A stretch of DNA of 64,000 nt from a virus (taxonomy: Duplodnaviria; Heunggongvirae; Uroviricota; Caudoviricetes). How positions within the stretch are numbered: position 1 is the stretch's first letter; each line of letters opens with the position of its first letter. Below are positions 4,979-48,745 of the stretch, in pieces. The notes below the pieces were generated by a model, which made no database searches, was not told the DNA's origin, and saw nothing but the letters and a program-made list of their open reading frames with translations. A program made the position numbers and the translations under genes. Location of the stretch: IMG/VR virus record IMGVR_UViG_3300028833_000069; one strand, written 5' to 3'.

Positions 4979-6431
4979 TTAAAATTAAACAAGAACATGT
5001 TAAAATAATAGAAGCTGTATTAACAGCATTCTCTAAAGAAGTTTTTACAACTTCATATGGGTCTATTACACCTTCTTCATATAAATCACCAACCCATTCT
5101 CTAGTTTTAAAATTATATCCTGACCAGTTCATTGAAGCTGGAAGTAATTTACATTCTCCCGCACCAAAACAGTTTCTATATAATATATAATAAGGAGTAG
5201 TAAGTACATCCTTTAAATATTTTAATTCAGTACTTAATGCAATAGATGCTCTAAACAAAGCAGAGCCACCACCTGGAAGTACACCACCTCTTAAAGCAGC
5301 TCTTGTAGCACCAACAGCATCTTCTACTCTGTCTAATCTTTCTTTAACTTCTATTTCAGAATATCCTCCAACATAAATAGTCGCAATACCTGCTGTAAAA
5401 TTAGCAAGTCTTTTTCTCTGAAATTCTAAATCAGCTTCTTCAAGATTTCCTTTTTCTAAAAGTCCTTGGATAGCATTTACTTTTTCAGTAATAGCTTCCT
5501 CATTACTTTTATATCCAACAAAAGTACAAGTATCAGCAGTAGCAATTACTTTATCACAATAAAGTGTTTCTCCAAGAATATCTTTAATATCAGAAAGCAG
5601 AATACTTCTCTGAATACCAAAGTTAGGTGCTACTACCATACAAGAATCTAATTTATGTAAGTTATTTAAAAGATTTATTTTTATCTCAGAGTCAAAATCA
5701 GGAGCAATTAGCAACAGAGCCTTTTTCTTTCTGAGAGCTTCATTAGCTACCTCAGCAACTTTAGTTATCTCACTAATCTTTACATCTGAGATGTATACCA
5801 TTACATTTTGAAGTACACATGTATTCTCAGCAGTATTTACAAATCTTGAATCAAAATAACCATTGTCAAATTGAAAGCCTTCTGAAAATTCAATACCATC
5901 TGAGTTTGTCTTAGATTTCTCAAATTTAACAATCCCATTCTTACCTACTTTCTTGAAAGCATCTGCTACAAGTGTACCAATTTTAATATCATTATTGGCT
6001 GAAAGAGTTGCTACCTTAACAAGGTCTTTTTCAGTAATATCTCTTTTATATTCTTTCAACCAATTAACCACTTTTTCACAATCTTCTTGTAAATCTCTTT
6101 GGATTTGAATAGGATTTTCCCTACTATCTGCAAGAAGCTTTACAATTTCCCTAGAAAGAATAGTAGCAGTAGTACTACCATCACCAACATCACTAGATGT
6201 TTTCCTAGAAATATCTCTCACTGCATCAATACCCATTTGTACATAAGGGTCTTCATGAGTTACATAAGTAGCTACTGTACTACCATCTTTAGTGACATGT
6301 AAATGTCTACCAAGTTTAATCATTACATTCCTACCACTTGGTCCATAAGTAGCAGCTACACAATCAGAAACAAGATTAACACCTTTAATCAAGTTCTTTT
6401 TACATTCATCATTAAATTGTACATGTTCCAT
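4971..6431 (-). CDS. GroEL-like chaperonin (Cpn60 family)
   Basis: 486 aa. GDGSTTATIL matches the GroEL GDGTTTATVL ATP-binding motif. TYGPSGRNVMI and LPGGG segments are also present. Confidence 0.75.
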   Translation of the reverse strand: MEHVQFNDECKKNLIKGVNLVSDCVAATYGPSGRNVMIKLGRHLHVTKDGSTVATYVTHEDPYVQMGIDAVRDISRKTSSDVGDGSTTATILSREIVKLLADSRENPIQIQRDLQEDCEKVVNWLKEYKRDITEKDLVKVATLSANNDIKIGTLVADAFKKVGKNGIVKFEKSKTNSDGIEFSEGFQFDNGYFDSRFVNTAENTCVLQNVMVYISDVKISEITKVAEVANEALRKKKALLLIAPDFDSEIKINLLNNLHKLDSCMVVAPNFGIQRSILLSDIKDILGETLYCDKVIATADTCTFVGYKSNEEAITEKVNAIQGLLEKGNLEEADLEFQRKRLANFTAGIATIYVGGYSEIEVKERLDRVEDAVGATRAALRGGVLPGGGSALFRASIALSTELKYLKDVLTTPYYILYRNCFGAGECKLLPASMNWSGYNFKTREWVGDLYEEGVIDPYEVVKTSLENAVNTASIILTCSCLILNA

Positions 6432-6448
6432 TATAAGAAAATTTTAAT

Positions 6449-6739
6449 TTACCATTTATTAAGTGGACATTTTTTAGAAGCAACTCTTAATGCAGCTTCA
6501 TGTGGGCATCCACAACCACTGATATATCCTGGATGATATTCTGTAGATAAATCTTTTGTTTCAGGATTATACCATTTGTTTCTATCACATTTGCCTCCAC
6601 CAATTGTATCTGTGTGTAAAGGACATTTTAAACAAATAGGAAGCCTTTTATTAACTAATTCTTGTTCTCTATTAAGAACTCTATTAGTCCATCCTTCTGC
6701 TATTTGTCCAACCTAATCTAAAGAATCTATACCAAACAT
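6449..6739 (-). CDS. Cys-rich small protein with in-frame TAG
   Basis: Manual translation gives MFGIDSLD[TAG]VGQIAEGW...CLKCPLH...CGCPHE...KCPLNKW. It is missed by the ORF track because TAG at 6713-6715 splits it. Confidence 0.35.
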
Positions 6740-8641: not shown

Positions 8642-9240
8642 TTAACATTTGTAAAATCAAGCAAGGTAGAAATTTGTTGAGATTTTTTTGATAAGTCACC
8701 TGTAATAAACTCCTTAGTAACTTTATGTTCAGACATAAATCCTAAAATAATAAATCCTATTGGAGTGTGAACTCCCTGAAGAGGACATACCACAATAGAT
8801 TTAAAACCATCTTCAGTTAATTCTTTATACATTCCAGGAAACACAGATTTAAGTTCTTTAATATCATCATACCAGACAATACCTTCCTTGTCTATCCTAT
8901 TTATAAAATGAGGTATTGCTGAAAGTAACATGTTATTAAACTAACTTGTCAATTCATCAATACCAAGTTTATTCTACTGAATTGTTGGAGTCATGTGTAG
9001 GAATTGTAAACCTGTCAGATTAGCTCCACCATTGTGATATTCAAATACAATAGCTCTATCTGCATCAGTTCTGTCTACTAAGTCTTTCATGACTTCTTTA
9101 ACTAACAAGACTTTCTCTTTTCTTGCTTTTAATGATTTTGCATGTGTATCCTCACTAGCATACTTTTCATGCCTTTTTTCAAAGTAAGGTTTCCAACTTG
9201 TAATATAAGTTACAATAGCAAATGCTAAAAAGAATAGCAT
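8638..9240 (-). CDS. membrane-anchored hypothetical protein with 2 in-frame TAG
   Basis: Track ORFs 8974..9240 and 8638..8931 are in one frame and joined through TAG at 8974-8976 and 8941-8943. The N-terminus has a TM helix. The gene ends on TGA. Confidence 0.4.
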
Positions 9241-9312
9241 TACACCTAGAATACCCCACTAATTAAAAAAATCTAATACTGTTGTAAGATTCATCTTTGT
9301 TATTTTCTCTAG

Positions 9313-9384
9313 AGCACCCTCCCAGAATCGAACTGAGATCTTTGGGTTACAAAGCCAAGGTAATAACCATTATACTAAGAGTGC
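9313..9384 (-). tRNA. tRNA-Thr(UGU)
   Basis: Cloverleaf with acceptor GCACTCT/AGGGTGC, T-loop TTCGATT and anticodon loop TTTGTAA. The anticodon stem has one mismatch. Confidence 0.55.
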
Positions 9385-9393
9385 ATAAATGTG

Positions 9394-9465
9394 CTGGCAG
9401 TACTGGAATCGAACCAGTATTGAGTGGTTAACAGCCACCTGTAATAACCTTTATACTAACTACCA
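9394..9465 (-). tRNA. tRNA-Asn(GUU)
   Basis: Acceptor TGGTAGT/ACTGCCA, anticodon stem GGTGG/CCACT, loop CTGTTAA, T-arm ACTGG-TTCGATT-CCAGT. Confidence 0.65.
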
Positions 9466-9471
9466 ATAAAG

Positions 9472-9547
9472 TGGATCTAGAGGAGACTCGAACCCTCAAC
9501 CTGCTGGTTGCAAACCAGCTGCTCTAGCCAATTGGAGCTATAGACCC
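9472..9547 (-). tRNA. tRNA-Ala(UGC)
   Basis: Acceptor GGGTCTA/TAGATCC, D-arm GCTC..GAGC, anticodon stem GCTGG/CCAGC, loop TTTGCAA. Confidence 0.65.
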
Positions 9548-9552
9548 AAAAG

Positions 9553-9626
9553 TAGTCTGGCTTGGATTTGAACCAAGGACCTCCATCTTATCAGGATGAC
9601 AATCTAACCAACTGATATACCAGACT
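9553..9626 (-). tRNA. tRNA-Ile(GAU)
   Basis: Perfect acceptor AGTCTGG/CCAGACT, anticodon loop CTGATAA, T-arm CTTGG-TTCAAAT-CCAAG. Confidence 0.7.
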
Positions 9627-9631
9627 ATGTG

Positions 9632-9706
9632 CGGTGTGTAGGGGATTTGAACCCCTGACTTCCTGCGTGACAGGCAGGCACTCTAGACCAGCTGAGCTAA
9701 CACACC
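9632..9706 (-). tRNA. tRNA-Asp(GUC)
   Basis: Acceptor GGTGTGT/ACACACC, anticodon stem CCTGC/GCAGG, loop CTGTCAC, T-arm AGGGG-TTCAAAT-CCCCT. Confidence 0.7.
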
Positions 9707-9713
9707 ATATAAG

Positions 9714-9787
9714 ACACACTGATGAGATTTGAACTCATGAATAGCAGTTTTGCAGACTGCCCCCTTAGACCACTTGGGTACAGTGTG
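9714..9787 (-). tRNA. tRNA-Cys(GCA)
   Basis: Acceptor CACACTG/CAGTGTG, anticodon stem GCAGT/ACTGC, loop CTGCAAA, T-arm ATGAG-TTCAAAT-CTCAT. Confidence 0.65.
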
Positions 9788-9790
9788 ATG

Positions 9791-9873
9791 TGGGAGTTGA
9801 GTGAGTCGAACACCCAGAGGCTAAGCCAAATGATTTACAGTCATCCCTGCTACCACTTACAGAATAAACTCCC
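9791..9873 (-). tRNA. tRNA-Tyr(GUA), class II
   Basis: Acceptor GGGAGTT/AACTCCC, anticodon loop CTGTAAA, long variable arm TGGCTTAGCCTCT, T-loop TTCGACT. Confidence 0.65.
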
Positions 9874-9880
9874 TAAATTG

Positions 9881-9953
9881 TCTGGATAGGAAGATTTGAA
9901 CTCCCGACCCCTTGCTCCCAAAGCAAGTGTTCTACCTACTGAACTACATCCAG
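9881..9953 (-). tRNA. tRNA-Pro(UGG)
   Basis: Acceptor CTGGATG/TATCCAG, D-arm GTTC..GAAC, anticodon stem CTTGC/GCAAG, loop TTTGGGA. Confidence 0.65.
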
Positions 9954-9959
9954 ATTATG

Positions 9960-10033
9960 TGCAGTAAAAAAGACTCGAACTCTCCCTCCCAGAATGGAAA
10001 TCTGGTGTGCTGAACCACTGACACTACTACTGC
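9960..10033 (-). tRNA. tRNA-Gly(UCC)
   Basis: Acceptor GCAGTAG/TTACTGC, anticodon stem CCAGA/TCTGG, loop TTTCCAT, T-loop TTCGAGT. Confidence 0.6.
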
Positions 10034-10038
10034 ATAAG

Positions 10039-10112
10039 AGCAATATAAAGGATTTGAACCCTCACTTCCTGACTGGCAGTCAAGTGTGCTAACCATTAAA
10101 CACTAATATTGC
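10039..10112 (-). tRNA. tRNA-Gly(GCC)
   Basis: Acceptor GCAATAT/ATATTGC, anticodon loop CTGCCAG, T-arm GAGGG-TTCAAAT-CCTTT. Confidence 0.55.
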
Positions 10113-10117
10113 ATAAG

Positions 10118-10148
10118 TTGCGGGGGTGGGACTCGAACCCACAACCTT
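10118..10148 (-). pseudogene. orphan 3' half of an initiator-like tRNA (T-arm GTGGG-TTCGAGT-CCCAC plus acceptor 3' strand CCCCGCA-A)
   Basis: The 3' end resembles bacterial tRNA-fMet (..CCCCCGCAAC). No matching 5' acceptor strand (TGCGGGG) exists nearby. The upstream sequence is the HNH coding region. Confidence 0.4.
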
Positions 10149-10380
10149 AAATTTTAGATTCTTGAAAATGATGCCATTGATGACAATTAGGACAAAGTAA
10201 AATACATTTATTCATTTCAGCTTTAATTTTGTCAAAGCTTAAATTACCTACTTCAGAACCACTAAAATCAAAAGATTTAGTAGAAGGATCTATATGATGA
10301 AACTATAGTATTTCAGGATGTTCTTTCCATCCACAAATAGCACAACATTTATCTTCTTTATACTTACGAAGAAAATTCAT
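10147..10380 (-). CDS. HNH homing endonuclease (77 aa) with one in-frame TAG
   Basis: Manual translation gives MNFLRKYKEDKCCAICGWKEHPEIL[TAG]FHHIDPSTKSF...NLS...LLCPNCHQWHHF. This is the CxxC...HH...N...CxxCH...H His-Me finger. TAG lies at 10303-10305. The gene sits between two Met-type tRNA sequences. Confidence 0.6.
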
Positions 10381-10453
10381 TCTTTTTTCTCTTCTTTTTC
10401 TGAAGTATTCTGTTCTTTTTCTCTAGTCTTTATACATAATTATAATTTTTAAG

Positions 10454-10525
10454 TTGCGCACGCAGGACTCGAACCTGGTCTAATGCTTATGAGACATTTA
10501 AGCTACCATTTGCTCCACCAGCGCA
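10454..10525 (-). tRNA. tRNA-Met(CAU) (elongator or Ile2-type; acceptor has 5 bp plus 2 mismatches)
   Basis: Anticodon stem AATGT/GCATT, loop CTCATAA, T-loop TTCGAGT, D-arm GAGC..GCTT. Confidence 0.5.
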
Positions 10526-10729
10526 ATATTTAATCTAAAATTAAGCTACCATTGCTACACCCCACTGAAATTTTGTGCAAAGGTACAACAAAAAATAGGA
10601 ACAAAAAACCCAAAATGTTCTTTTATAAAATAAAGCTCTCATTTTAAAACAAGAGGCTTAAACTTGTTTTTAATTTATCTACCTTTTTTATAGGAAGTAT
10701 TTGTAGTATCTTTGTAGAAAATTTTAAAT

Positions 10730-11620
10730 ATGAATCAAAATATATCAGAATTAGTAAAAGACCTGAAAACTCTTCCATTATTTAAAACTGGTGGAGGTAT
10801 ACACATTAAACCAGAGAATAAAGGAAAATTTACAGAGACTATGAAAAGAACTGGCAAAACCGCTGAAGAACTTTCACATAGTAAGAATGAATTAACAAGA
10901 AAGAGAGCATAGTTTGCACTTAATGCAAGAAAATGGAAACACCAAGAGGGTGGCACTATTGGATTATTTCAAGGTAAAAACTATTATAAACACAGTGCAA
11001 CTCAAGATAATTCACCATTGTATGATCCATATAAATTTAAAAATCTTGTTTATTCACCAGAAGATGAGGATGAAAGAAGAGAAGAAGAAATAATAGAAAT
11101 TCCTGAAGAAGTCCCTGTTACTAACCCCACCCTTACCAAAAAGACTACAGCTCCTAGAAATACAACATATTATAGACCTGCTTATCAAGGTAAAGAACAA
11201 TGGGTAAAGGATTTATATCAAGCCTATATAAATGCAGGTGCTTCTGAGAGTTTAGCACACACTCTTATAGCTCAGGATGCTATTGAAACAGCCTGGGGCA
11301 AGAAGACAGTGGGTAATTACAATTATGGTAATATACATGCTGGTAGTTCATGGAGAGGTGCAGTTGTTAATGCAAATGATAGAGATGCCACTGGAAATCC
11401 TTATAGAACAGGATTTAGAAGTTATAATAATATGAATGAATATGTAGCAGATAAATTATCATTGCTTACAAGATTATATGGAATAACAAATACTGATACT
11501 CCAGCTGTTGTAAAAGCTAAATTAGAAGGAGCAAACAGAAATGGTTATAAATATGCTGAGGCTGGACAACCTAGTTTATTAGCAACAACTGCTTCTGTAG
11601 CAAGAATGTTTCAATCATAA
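10730..11620 (+). CDS. peptidoglycan glucosaminidase (FlgJ-like Glucosaminidase domain), one in-frame TAG
   Basis: Track ORFs 10730..10912 and 11018..11620 share a frame and are continuous through TAG at 10910-10912. The domain motif is AQDAIETAWGKKTVGNYNYGNI...GNPYRTGFRSYNNMNEYVADKLSLL. Confidence 0.6.
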
Positions 11621-14866: not shown

Positions 14867-14882
14867 ATCTATTATAATTTAG

Positions 14883-14972
14883 TAGCCCCTGAGGGACTCG
14901 AACCCTCACAACCTCCAACAGAAGGATATAACAGTTTTAGAGACTGGTGTACTGCCATTATACTAAGGGGCA
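14883..14972 (-). tRNA. suppressor tRNA with anticodon CUA (reads UAG), class II with long variable arm
   Basis: Anticodon stem CAGT/ACTG with a 7-nt loop CTCTAAA (U33, CUA at 34-36, A37). The anticodon is complementary to plus 14938-14940 tag. D-arm GTAT-AATGGCA-GTAC. Variable arm of about 23 nt with a CCTTC/GGAGG stem. T-arm GAGGG-TTCGAGT-CCCTC. Acceptor GCCCCT/AGGGGC with a 1:72 mismatch. Confidence 0.6.
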
Positions 14973-48652: not shown

Positions 48653-48728
48653 GACATCTTAGCTCAGTTGGTATTAGAGCACCTCACCTTTAATGAGGGG
48701 GTCCTGGGTTCAAATCCCAGAGGTGTCA
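48653..48728 (+). tRNA. tRNA-Lys(UUU) with unusual C at position 33
   Basis: Acceptor GACATCT/AGGTGTC, D-arm GCTC-AGTTGGTATTA-GAGC, perfect anticodon stem CCTCA/TGAGG, loop CCTTTAA, T-arm CTGGG-TTCAAAT-CCCAG. Confidence 0.55.
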
Positions 48729-48745
48729 CTAAAAATAAATATAAA

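What the first reader, a model, noticed from the sequence alone, without database searches (positions are those of the whole stretch)
10118..10525. HNH endonuclease inserted in the tRNA array, flanked by an orphan initiator-like tRNA 3' half that repeats the 3' end of the neighbouring tRNA-Met
The 77-aa HNH gene lies between tRNA-Met (10454-10525) and a 31-nt fragment (10118-10148). The fragment is a perfect tRNA T-arm plus a CCCCGCA-A acceptor 3' strand resembling bacterial tRNA-fMet, but no 5' half exists. On the plus strand both sequences begin with the same AAGTTGCG octamer. This looks like the footprint of a homing endonuclease insertion that destroyed or duplicated part of a second Met/fMet tRNA gene. 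The HNH gene itself carries a recoded TAG.
Basis: seen in the sequence. Interest (0 to 1): 0.55.

Follow-up and report, generated by a model that had tools for sequence, protein, structure and literature searches.

The report
HNH–tRNA cassette nested in tRNA-Met gene
A small mobile element, made of a homing-endonuclease gene and its own spare methionine tRNA, has replaced the anticodon arm of a gut phage's methionine tRNA gene, leaving both ends of the old gene as flanking stubs; this is an unusual form of a known kind of selfish DNA.

Summary
The 31-nt fragment is real, but it is not an orphan. It is the 3' stub (10146-10118) of the first tRNA gene of the minus-strand array. The closest relative without the HNH gene (L169) has an intact 72-nt initiator-like tRNA-Met(CAU) at this position. 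Its first 25 and last 29 nt are identical to the two stubs. Homology to the window breaks exactly at 10146|10147 and 10541|10542.

The 395 nt in between replace the 18-nt anticodon arm. They form one compact cassette: a 16-nt leader, a divergent tRNA-Met(CAU), a 16-nt spacer, and an HNH ORF. The ORF is 96 aa, not 77, and has two in-frame TAGs. An 11-bp terminal inverted repeat bounds the cassette.

The same cassette (93-94% identical) sits at the same position in a different tRNA-Met gene of another phage (L173). HNH homologues of 63-69% identity also lie in or beside tRNA-Met genes.

Best reading: a free-standing homing-endonuclease cassette that targets tRNA-Met genes and carries a substitute tRNA-Met. 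It is not a spliced intron. This is a new variant of a known kind. The inverted repeat is unexplained.

The parts
10578..10585 (-). Bacteroidetes-type -7 promoter motif TAccTTTG, 12 nt upstream of the first tRNA position. The split gene is therefore the first element of the array transcript.
   Evidence: Read from the sequence. TTGTTGTA..TTTGCA is conserved in all relatives in alignment A2. That it is a promoter is inferred from the known Bacteroidetes consensus TAnnTTTG (own knowledge).
10542..10566 (-). 5' stub of the resident tRNA-Met gene: acceptor 5' strand AGTGGGG, TG, D-arm TAGC-AATGGTA-GCTT, and N26 A.
   Evidence: 25/25 identical to the start of the intact tRNA-Met of L169. The BLAST breakpoint falls at 10541|10542.
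10147..10541 (-). The 395-nt inserted cassette. It replaces the 18-nt anticodon arm CAAGGCTCATAACCTTGT of the resident gene.
   Evidence: Absent from L169 and six other relatives. Present in L159. Present at 93-94% identity inside a different tRNA gene in L173, where the flanking stubs are only 62-69% identical.
10532..10542 (-). Left arm of the terminal inverted repeat, AATTTTAGATT. Its first base (10542) is shared with the stub.
   Evidence: The repeat is 13 bp in L159 and 12 bp in L173.
10526..10541 (-). 16-nt leader ATTTTAGATTAAATAT in front of the cargo tRNA.
   Evidence: 15/16 identical in L173.
10454..10525 (-). Cargo tRNA-Met(CAU). It has an unusual 8-bp acceptor stem with two mismatches and a 4-bp T stem. 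Its anticodon loop CTCATAA matches the resident gene, but all five stem pairs differ (AATGT/GCATT against CAAGG/CCTTG).
   Evidence: ARAGORN. Rfam tRNA 44.9 bits. Compensatory T-stem change CAGG/CCTG to CACG/CGTG in L173.
10147..10437 (-). HNH endonuclease ORF of 96 aa, with in-frame TAG codons at 10425-10423 and 10305-10303. The stop codon TAA is at 10149-10147, directly abutting the 3' stub.
   Evidence: Pfam PF01844 at 23.4 bits against a cut-off of 21.4. PHROG 2255 HNH endonuclease at 1.5e-26. Aligned with homologues; translated.
10150..10160 (-). Right arm of the terminal inverted repeat, AATCTAAAATT. It lies inside the last codons of the HNH ORF (E-S-K-I-stop).
   Evidence: A repeat of at least 11 bp within the terminal 30 nt arose in 6 of 20,000 shuffles.
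10118..10146 (-).
   Evidence: 29/29 identical to the end of the intact tRNA-Met of L169. The BLAST breakpoint falls at 10146|10147.
10038..10112 (-). tRNA-Gly(GCC), the next gene of the array, 5 nt after the stub. The spacing is the same as after the intact tRNA-Met in relatives.

Best explanation
The window is from a large crAss-like (Crassvirales) phage that reads TAG as a sense codon. Its minus-strand tRNA array originally began with an initiator-like tRNA-Met(CAU) gene.

A 395-nt mobile cassette has replaced that gene's 18-nt anticodon arm. The cassette consists of a leader, its own tRNA-Met(CAU), and a 96-aa HNH homing endonuclease. The acceptor/D-arm part (10566-10542) and the variable-loop/T-arm/acceptor part (10146-10118) remain as flanking stubs. 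This part is shown.

The likely mechanism is inferred by analogy with free-standing homing endonucleases:
1. The endonuclease is made from the array transcript. The two TAG codons tie its translation to the phage's suppressor tRNA.
2. In a mixed infection it cuts the intact tRNA-Met gene of a cassette-free relative in or near the anticodon-arm DNA. That stretch is absent from the cassette-bearing allele, and it differs at all five stem pairs in the cargo tRNA.
3. Repair of the break from the cassette-bearing genome copies the cassette into the cut gene.
4. The resident tRNA-Met is destroyed, and the cargo tRNA-Met is presumed to supply a CAU decoder in its place.

The stubs are remnants, and they serve as homology arms. 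They are not exons that get spliced.
For: 1. Empty site. L169 has an intact tRNA-Met(CAT) (Rfam 54.1 bits). Its first 25 and last 29 nt equal the two stubs. Homology to the window breaks at 10146|10147 and 10541|10542. Six more relatives also have an intact tRNA-Met directly followed by tRNA-Gly(GCC).

2. Filled site in independent assemblies: the window and L159.

3. Mobility.
- In L173 the same cassette is 93-94% identical across leader, tRNA, spacer and ORF.
- It lies at the same position (after N26, before the variable loop) in a different tRNA-Met-like gene.
- The stubs there are only 62-69% identical to the window's, and the neighbouring sequences are unrelated.

4. Haplotype pattern.
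- Window and L159 differ at only four sites between 9938 and 10827 (10134, 10146, 10231 and the 3-nt indel at the left junction), with none from 10542 to 10827.
- From 10828 onward they differ by about 5.8%.
- L169 is only 90% identical to the window over 10542-10721, upstream of the insertion. This fits the flank having been copied along with the cassette.

5. The HNH clade is tied to tRNA-Met genes.
- L174-L179 and L182 (67-68% identity) have tRNA-Met, HNH, then a tRNA 3' remnant. L174-L176 also have an outer 5' stub, which is absent in L182.
- In L018 and L180 (63-64% identity) the ORF sits in the anticodon loop of a tRNA-Met. The intact form of that gene is in cr114_1.
- In the cultured Bacteroides phages DAC15/DAC17 (69% identity) the ORF lies directly upstream of a tRNA-Met-like gene.

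6. Older stubs decay. The T-arm is degenerate in L174, the 5' stub is absent in L182, and the 5' anticodon-stem strand is lost in L180.

7. Cargo tRNAs keep their helices through compensatory changes: 12 of 21 pairs show double changes across five sequences.

8. No ribozyme. No group I or other intron family was found in 9000-11000 at E<=10, in L018, or in L173/L174/L180/L182.

9. Other endonuclease ORFs have replaced tRNA-Tyr and tRNA-Asp in the same array of close relatives.
Against: - No cleavage activity or target site has been shown. The homing steps are analogy.
- The cargo tRNA-Met is odd, with an 8/4 acceptor/T-stem arrangement, T.T and G.G mismatches, and 44.9 bits. Whether it is charged and used is unknown. 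The type-B cargo tRNAs of L174/L182 do not reach Rfam's gathering score.
- The perfect 11-13-bp terminal inverted repeat sits exactly where the anticodon stem was. Simple homing does not predict it, and it remains unexplained.
- In L159 the stubs plus the repeat give a canonical tRNA geometry, with a would-be loop TT-CTA-AA. This could hint at function. However, the geometry shifts by 1-4 nt in the window and L173.
- Only one relative (L159) is close enough to test for co-conversion, so the haplotype evidence is thin.
Confidence: 0.78

Rival explanations
1. Functional interrupted tRNA. The two stubs are exons, and the 395-nt insert is an intron removed at the RNA level, either by self-splicing or by protein enzymes such as RNase P/Z cuts around the inner tRNA followed by an RNA ligase. 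This would yield a working tRNA, possibly with anticodon CUA taken from the repeat (TT-CTA-AA in L159).
For: - The MFE fold of the whole region pairs the two acceptor strands and forms the long helix.
- Joining the halves gives sequences that ARAGORN accepts as tRNAs, and L159 gives a canonical 73-nt tRNA(CUA).
- The phage reads TAG as sense.
- Lak megaphages were reported to have tRNA 'introns', one of which holds a tRNA (10.1101/356790).
Against: - The resident anticodon arm, including CAT, is deleted, so a tRNA-Met cannot be restored.
- No intron ribozyme family is detected. Only 32 nt of the insert is neither tRNA nor ORF.
- The helix joins the tRNA body at positions that differ by 1-4 nt in the window, L159 and L173. 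In the window the geometry is not canonical.
- Stubs decay in older insertions.
- A separate, conserved tRNA(CUA) already exists at 14882-14972.
Confidence: 0.06
2. The cassette is a discrete element whose terminal inverted repeat is functional. One possibility is that the repeats are transposon-like ends recognised at the DNA level. Another is that they form an RNA helix standing in for the anticodon stem. In that case the primary transcript would fold into a tRNA-shaped scaffold, so that RNase P and 3' processing define or stabilise the tRNA-Met/HNH transcript.
For: - The repeat is improbable by chance (6 of 20,000 shuffles).
- It lies exactly at the two ends of the segment conserved between the window and L173.
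- It is present in all three type-A copies.
- It occupies precisely the place of the anticodon stem.
- The MFE fold forms it.
Against: - It is absent from the related type-B cassettes and from L018/L180, so the family does not require it.
- There is no sequence variation in the repeat to test covariation.
- No transposase is present.
- The inner tRNA would probably be cut out co-transcriptionally, before the distal arm is made (inference).
- The right arm looks like a remodelled ORF end: ESKI* against QETA... in homologues. That fits a repair scar.
Confidence: 0.12
3. The fragment is an attachment-site-type duplicate of the 3' end of the adjacent tRNA-Met, left by an integrating element. A variant of this reading is that it is an orphan piece of a second tRNA whose 5' half has been lost.
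For: The two 3' ends share CGCAACTT and the T-loop GGTTCGAGTCC.
Against: - Outside those generic motifs the two 3' ends differ.
- The fragment is 29/29 identical to the intact L169 gene, not to the adjacent tRNA.
- The 5' half is present at 10566-10542.
- The insert holds no integrase.
Confidence: 0.02

Closest known systems
Phage T4 SegB, a free-standing GIY-YIG homing endonuclease in the tRNA gene cluster (PMC2330249)
   Same: It is an endonuclease gene sitting among phage tRNA genes. It recognises a tRNA-gene motif. In mixed infection it drives inheritance of itself and the surrounding tRNA genes into relatives that lack it.
   Different: SegB belongs to a different nuclease family (GIY-YIG, not HNH). 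It lies between intact tRNA genes and recognises the T-arm motif. Here the cassette sits inside a tRNA gene, has deleted its anticodon arm, and carries a second tRNA of the same anticodon. Cleavage has not been shown here.
HNH endonuclease gp116 of Bacteroides crAss-like phages DAC15/DAC17 (NC_055832.1)
   Same: It is the closest homologue in cultured phages, at 68.8% identity over 77 aa. It has the same N-terminal extension. It lies next to a tRNA-Met(CAT)-like sequence.
   Different: In DAC15 the gene lies between tRNA-Leu and an apparently whole, unannotated tRNA-Met-like gene. There are no flanking stubs and no inverted repeat.
'Enigmatic' tRNA introns of Lak megaphages, including a tRNA-Thr intron predicted to encode a tRNA (Devoto et al., bioRxiv 10.1101/356790)
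   Same: A phage of a Bacteroidetes host with TAG recoding. A tRNA gene is interrupted by an insert that itself contains a tRNA. The insert is present or absent among close relatives.
   Different: Those inserts were described as introns with no mechanism given, and no endonuclease gene is mentioned. Here an HNH gene is part of the insert and the anticodon arm is deleted, so this is replacement rather than splicing. Whether the Lak cases are the same thing was not tested.
Group I introns in bacterial tRNA anticodon loops, for example the cyanobacterial tRNA-fMet intron that encodes the PD-(D/E)XK endonuclease I-Ssp6803I (own knowledge; Pfam PF11645 family)
   Same: An endonuclease ORF is inserted in the anticodon region of an initiator-type tRNA gene and is mobile by homing.
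   Different: There is no ribozyme here. The anticodon arm is deleted rather than interrupted. Function is presumably rescued by a cargo tRNA instead of by splicing.

Membership tests
HNH endonuclease (Pfam PF01844) | Profile match above the curated cut-off, with the Cys pairs and the HH...N...H motif. | tested here: met
   24.4 and 23.4 bits against a cut-off of 21.4. PHROG 2255 at 1.5e-26. CxxC, FHH, N and CPNCH columns are invariant across 10 homologues.
Free-standing homing endonuclease gene | Presence/absence polymorphism at one and the same site among close relatives. | tested here: met
   Filled in the window and L159. Empty in L169 and six others, with exact breakpoints.
Free-standing homing endonuclease gene | The same element is found in diverged host genes, with identity dropping sharply at its ends. 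| tested here: met
   Window against L173: cassette 93-94% identical, stubs 62-69%, and beyond them not alignable.
Free-standing homing endonuclease gene | Flanking markers are co-converted along with the element. | tested here: inconclusive
   The two cassette-bearing genomes are near-identical over 9938-10827 and about 5.8% different beyond that. The empty allele is 90% identical upstream. Only two filled genomes are available.
Free-standing homing endonuclease gene | The protein cuts the cassette-free allele site-specifically, and the cassette-bearing allele is resistant. | not testable with these tools
   The only support is inference. The presumed target (the anticodon arm) is deleted in the filled allele, and all five stem pairs differ in the cargo tRNA.
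Group I (or other self-splicing) intron | A conserved ribozyme core detectable by a covariance model. | tested here: not met
   No intron family at E<=10 in 9000-11000, and none in L018, L173, L174, L180 or L182. Non-coding, non-tRNA sequence in the insert totals 32 nt.
Protein-spliced tRNA intron (bulge-helix-bulge type) | The intron lies in the anticodon loop with the anticodon kept in an exon, and the splice sites lie in two 3-nt bulges around a 4-bp helix. | tested here: not met
   The resident anticodon arm is absent from both stubs. The helix is continuous (L159) or has a single 1-nt bulge (window).
tRNA (the cargo gene 10525-10454) | Cloverleaf match above Rfam's gathering score, with helices kept by compensatory change. 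| tested here: met
   44.9 bits against 29. The T-stem changes from CAGG/CCTG to CACG/CGTG in L173. Caveat: the acceptor stem is 8 bp with two mismatches.
Bacterial initiator tRNA (the resident, now split gene) | A mismatched or weak 1:72 pair. | tested here: met
   A1xA72 in the window stubs and in intact L169. U1-A72 in L161-type alleles.
Bacterial initiator tRNA (the resident, now split gene) | An A11:U24 pair in the D stem. | tested here: met
   TAGC...GCTT in the stub and in L169. That this criterion defines initiators is from own knowledge of E. coli tRNA-fMet.
Bacterial initiator tRNA (the resident, now split gene) | Three consecutive G:C pairs at the bottom of the anticodon stem. | tested here: not met
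   The intact L169 stem CAAGG/CCTTG has two (G30:C40 and G31:C39). The cargo tRNA stem AATGT/GCATT has one. The gene is therefore 'initiator-like' only.
Integrative element with tRNA att duplication | A direct repeat of the tRNA 3' end at both ends of an element that encodes an integrase. | tested here: not met
   There is no integrase. The fragment matches the split gene, not the adjacent tRNA.

The most novel reading that the evidence does not exclude
The cassette may be more than a selfish insertion that happens to carry a spare tRNA.
- Its 11-13-bp terminal inverted repeat may be selected to stand in for the deleted anticodon stem.
- The array transcript would then fold into a tRNA-shaped scaffold (outer acceptor, D and T arms) carrying a nested tRNA and an mRNA.
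- The host's tRNA-processing enzymes would cut this scaffold out, defining or stabilising the endonuclease message. In the L159-type geometry, re-ligation could even give a chimeric tRNA(CUA).

More broadly, the 'enigmatic tRNA introns' of Lak and other gut phages may be cassettes of this kind.
Probability: 0.1. Interest if true: 0.7.

Novelty: new variant of a known kind. Interest (0 to 1): 0.45.

Why it matters
Homing endonuclease genes usually avoid killing the gene they invade. They do so either by hiding in a self-splicing intron or intein, or by sitting beside the gene. This case shows a third arrangement: the element deletes the functional centre of a tRNA gene and brings a divergent, presumably cut-resistant copy of the same tRNA with it.

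It also gives a concrete, testable explanation for interrupted tRNA genes with nested tRNAs in recoded gut phages. Such genes have been reported as unexplained 'introns'.

Finally, it shows that tRNA arrays of large crAss-like phages are hot spots of endonuclease traffic. This matters for annotating their tRNA sets and for understanding how the arrays are reshuffled.

Tried and rejected
- Group I or other ribozyme intron. Rfam scans at E<=10 found nothing in the window, in L018 or in four other loci.
- ARAGORN with intron search up to 600 nt and a relaxed threshold. It does not call the split gene.
- 'The start of the insert is designed to pair with the anticodon.' I considered this for L018/L180 (TTATGC/GCATAA). 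I rejected it once the alignment showed that the HNH ORF starts there. ATG is simply the reverse complement of the CAT anticodon.
- 'The stubs are decaying in the window.' Three of the five differences between the window and L159 fall in the stubs or at the junctions. I rejected decay because the window's stubs are 100% identical to the intact L169 gene, and the T-loop G/A difference is also polymorphic among intact alleles.
- The repeat as a copy of the anticodon arm of the phage's own tRNA(CUA). The sequences are unrelated.
- Searches for the cassette elsewhere in IMG/VR found nothing: the 5' stub 23-mer and the cargo tRNA 26-mer. The 19-mer GGGTGTAGCARTGGTAGCT was too unspecific.
- INPHARED blastn of the region gave only generic tRNA hits and hits to the neighbouring gene.
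- A search for RNA ligase or repair genes in the window was not attempted, because too few family searches remained.

Full report
**Setting**

The window comes from a large crAss-like phage.
- The gene next to the finding matches crAss-like phages such as IAS virus and cr60_1.
- Its protein is identical to one on a 168-kb JGI contig.
- Several genes carry in-frame TAG codons.
- ARAGORN finds 24 tRNAs, including a CUA and a UUA suppressor type.
- A minus-strand array runs from about 10566 down to 9312. It follows a conserved TAccTTTG motif (10585-10578), which fits the Bacteroidetes -7 promoter consensus (own knowledge; conservation).

**Checking the observation**

- The fragment is as described. 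On the minus strand, 10146-10118 reads GGTT GTGGG TTCGAGT CCCAC CCCCGCA A.
- Its 25-mer occurs in 17 IMG/VR contigs. In 15 of them it is the 3' end of a called tRNA-Met(CAT), and some of those are clear initiators. 'Initiator-like' is therefore justified.
- The neighbouring tRNA-Met (10525-10454) is real.
- The ORF between them is an HNH endonuclease, with a TAG at 10305-10303.

Three details needed correction.
- Homologues show that the ORF starts 19 codons earlier. It is 96 aa (10437-10147) and has a second TAG at 10425-10423.
- The shared octamer lies at 10115-10122 and 10451-10458. It consists of four acceptor bases, the discriminator and a CTT trailer.
- A tRNA 5' half does exist: AGTGGGG TG TAGC AATGGTA GCTT A at 10566-10542, just upstream of the tRNA-Met. 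In the MFE fold of 10580-10105 its acceptor strand pairs with CCCCGCA of the fragment. In the same fold, a second long helix forms between 10542-10532 and 10160-10150.

**The empty site**

I searched for homologues of the neighbouring glucosaminidase-like gene and fetched their contigs.

The closest cassette-free relative is L169 (neighbour protein 94% identical). After the same promoter region it has an intact tRNA-Met(CAT):

AGTGGGGTGTAGCAATGGTAGCTTA | CAAGGCTCATAACCTTGT | GGTTGTGGGTTCGAGTCCCACCCCCGCAA

This is followed by CTTATG and tRNA-Gly(GCC). It scores 54.1 bits with the Rfam tRNA model.
- Its first 25 and last 29 nt are identical to the two stubs in the window.
- BLAST homology between the window and L169 breaks exactly at 10146|10147 and 10541|10542.
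- L161, L162, L163, L167, L168, L170 and the more distant L036 also have an intact tRNA-Met at this position and no HNH gene.

So the 395 nt from 10541 to 10147 are an insertion that replaced the 18-nt anticodon arm of the resident gene.

**The cassette**

It is compact:
- a 16-nt leader;
- a 72-nt tRNA-Met(CAU);
- a 16-nt spacer;
- a 291-nt HNH ORF whose stop codon abuts the 3' stub.

A second assembly, L159, has the same arrangement. Across the array the window and L159 are near-identical. The differences in or beside the split gene are:
- a 3-nt indel at the left junction;
- a G/A difference at the right junction;
- a T-loop G/A difference that is also polymorphic among intact alleles;
- one synonymous change in the ORF.

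From 10828 onward the two genomes differ by about 5.8%. L169 is only 90% identical to the window in the 180 nt upstream of the insertion. This pattern fits a cassette that spread recently together with some flanking sequence. With two filled genomes, though, the evidence is thin.

**Mobility and family behaviour**

I searched with the HNH protein, reading TAG as Q, and looked up the contigs.

- L173 (HNH 92% identical) carries the same cassette. Identity is 93-94% across leader, tRNA, spacer and ORF. It sits at the same position, after N26 and before the variable loop, in a different tRNA-Met-like gene: AGCGGAG TG TAGC AGAGGTA GCTA C ... AAGTC GGTGG TTCAAAT CTACT CTCCGCA A. The stubs there are only 62-69% identical to the window's, and the neighbourhood is unrelated. 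Identity drops exactly at the cassette ends.
- A second cassette type (HNH 67-68% identical; L174-L179, L182) has a different tRNA-Met followed by the HNH gene and a tRNA 3' remnant. In L174 an initiator-type 5' stub (CGCGGAG...) is also present.
- In L018 and L180 (63-64% identical) the ORF alone sits in the anticodon loop of a tRNA-Met. The intact form of that gene is annotated in cr114_1.
- In the cultured Bacteroides phages DAC15/DAC17 (69% identical) the gene lies directly upstream of an unannotated tRNA-Met-like sequence.

Every homologue of at least 63% identity whose context I examined is therefore tied to a tRNA-Met gene. More distant homologues (51% or less) lie in varied places, some next to other tRNAs.

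**Are the stubs exons?**

The evidence is against it.
- The resident anticodon arm, including CAT, is gone, so no tRNA-Met can be rebuilt.
- No intron ribozyme is detectable, and only 32 nt of the insert is neither tRNA nor ORF.
- The long helix joins the tRNA body at positions that differ by 1-4 nt among the window, L159 and L173. L159 happens to give a canonical geometry with a would-be TT-CTA-AA loop, but the window does not.
- Stubs decay in the older, more diverged insertions. The T-arm is degenerate in L174, there is no 5' stub in L182, and the 5' anticodon-stem strand is lost in L180.
- The cargo tRNAs, by contrast, keep their helices through compensatory changes. CAGG/CCTG becomes CACG/CGTG between the window and L173, and GTGTG/CACAC becomes GTGCG/CGCAC between L174 and L182. 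In all, 12 of 21 pairs show double changes.

**Mechanism**

Shown: an HNH-plus-tRNA-Met cassette has replaced the anticodon arm of the resident tRNA-Met gene, and the cassette has moved between diverged tRNA-Met genes.

Inferred, by analogy with free-standing homing endonucleases such as T4 SegB (which recognises a tRNA T-arm motif and drives inheritance of the T4 tRNA region; PMC2330249):
- the HNH enzyme cuts intact tRNA-Met genes in or near the anticodon arm;
- the break is repaired from the cassette-bearing genome;
- the cargo tRNA, which differs from the target at all five anticodon-stem pairs, both escapes cutting and replaces the lost function.

**What remains unexplained**

The cassette ends in a perfect inverted repeat: 11 bp in the window, 13 bp in L159 and 12 bp in L173. 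Only 6 of 20,000 shuffles reach 11 bp. The repeat occupies exactly the place of the anticodon stem. Its right arm encodes the last residues of the ORF (ESKI*, where homologues have QETA...).

The repeat is absent from the type-B cassettes and from L018/L180, so the family does not need it. It may be a repair scar, an RNA helix that closes off the insert, or something else. No variation was available to test covariation.

**Comparison with known systems and novelty**

Endonuclease genes in phage tRNA clusters are known (T4 SegB). Endonuclease-bearing group I introns in tRNA-fMet genes are also known (own knowledge). What differs here is the nested arrangement:
- the target gene's functional centre is deleted;
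- its ends are kept as stubs;
- a divergent copy of the same tRNA rides in the cassette.

The nearest published observation is the 'enigmatic' tRNA introns of Lak megaphages, one of which is predicted to encode a tRNA (10.1101/356790). Literature searches found no description of the present arrangement. I rate it a new variant of a known kind, of moderate interest.

Noticed in passing
window 29700-29836 (+): A 136-nt tRNA-like element. Acceptor strands TGGGGGAA/TTCCCCCA enclose a perfect T-arm, CCTGG TTCGAGT CCAGG, and about 90 nt of other structure. ARAGORN does not call it at default settings; relaxed settings call it 'tRNA-Gln with a 48-nt intron'. There is no Rfam match. It may be another interrupted or non-canonical tRNA.
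   Followed up: partly
window 14882-14972 (-) and 48653-48729 (+): Two suppressor-type tRNAs occur in one phage. One has anticodon CUA, is 91 nt long with a long variable region, and is conserved in relatives L161, L163-L165 and L036. The other has anticodon UUA. Only TAG recoding was evident in the genes I looked at.
   Followed up: partly
L159 1379-1774 (-), the position of tRNA-Tyr (window 9790-9873): In the close relative L159 a 131-aa PD-(D/E)XK endonuclease ORF (Pfam PDDEXK_5, 1.8e-15; one in-frame TAG) has replaced tRNA-Tyr from the D-loop onward. Only the first 23 nt of the tRNA remain. No substitute tRNA-Tyr was seen on the contig.
   Followed up: partly
L159 371-1258 (-) and L169 1-392 (-), the position of tRNA-Asp (window 9631-9706): A 295-aa zinc-finger ORF with several in-frame TAGs occupies the place of tRNA-Asp in L159 and L169. 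It has only weak Pfam matches and may be another endonuclease-type insertion.
   Followed up: partly
L171 1736-1804 (NC_055832.1, about 6384-6452): In cultured Bacteroides phage DAC15 a tRNA-Met(CAT)-like sequence with a short D-arm follows the HNH gene gp116 by one base. It is not annotated in RefSeq. The cargo tRNAs of L174 and L182 are of the same type and fall below Rfam's gathering score.
   Followed up: partly
window 10730-11620 (+): The neighbouring glucosaminidase-like gene (Pfam PF01832 in homologues) has an in-frame TAG at 10913-10915. Standard ORF lists therefore split it into pieces.
   Followed up: yes
L164-L166 (relatives with 80% identical neighbour protein): These relatives lack most of the array. 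Only Thr, Asn and Ala remain in L164. This is further evidence that the array is highly variable between close relatives.
   Followed up: no
L006 1-125 and L015 779-860: In two unrelated IMG/VR contigs the initiator-type 3' 25-mer occurs without a called tRNA-Met. L006 has a long insert between a GCGGGG start and the T-arm. L015 has a truncated anticodon-arm-like piece next to a tRNA-Trp. These may be further interrupted initiator tRNA genes.
   Followed up: no
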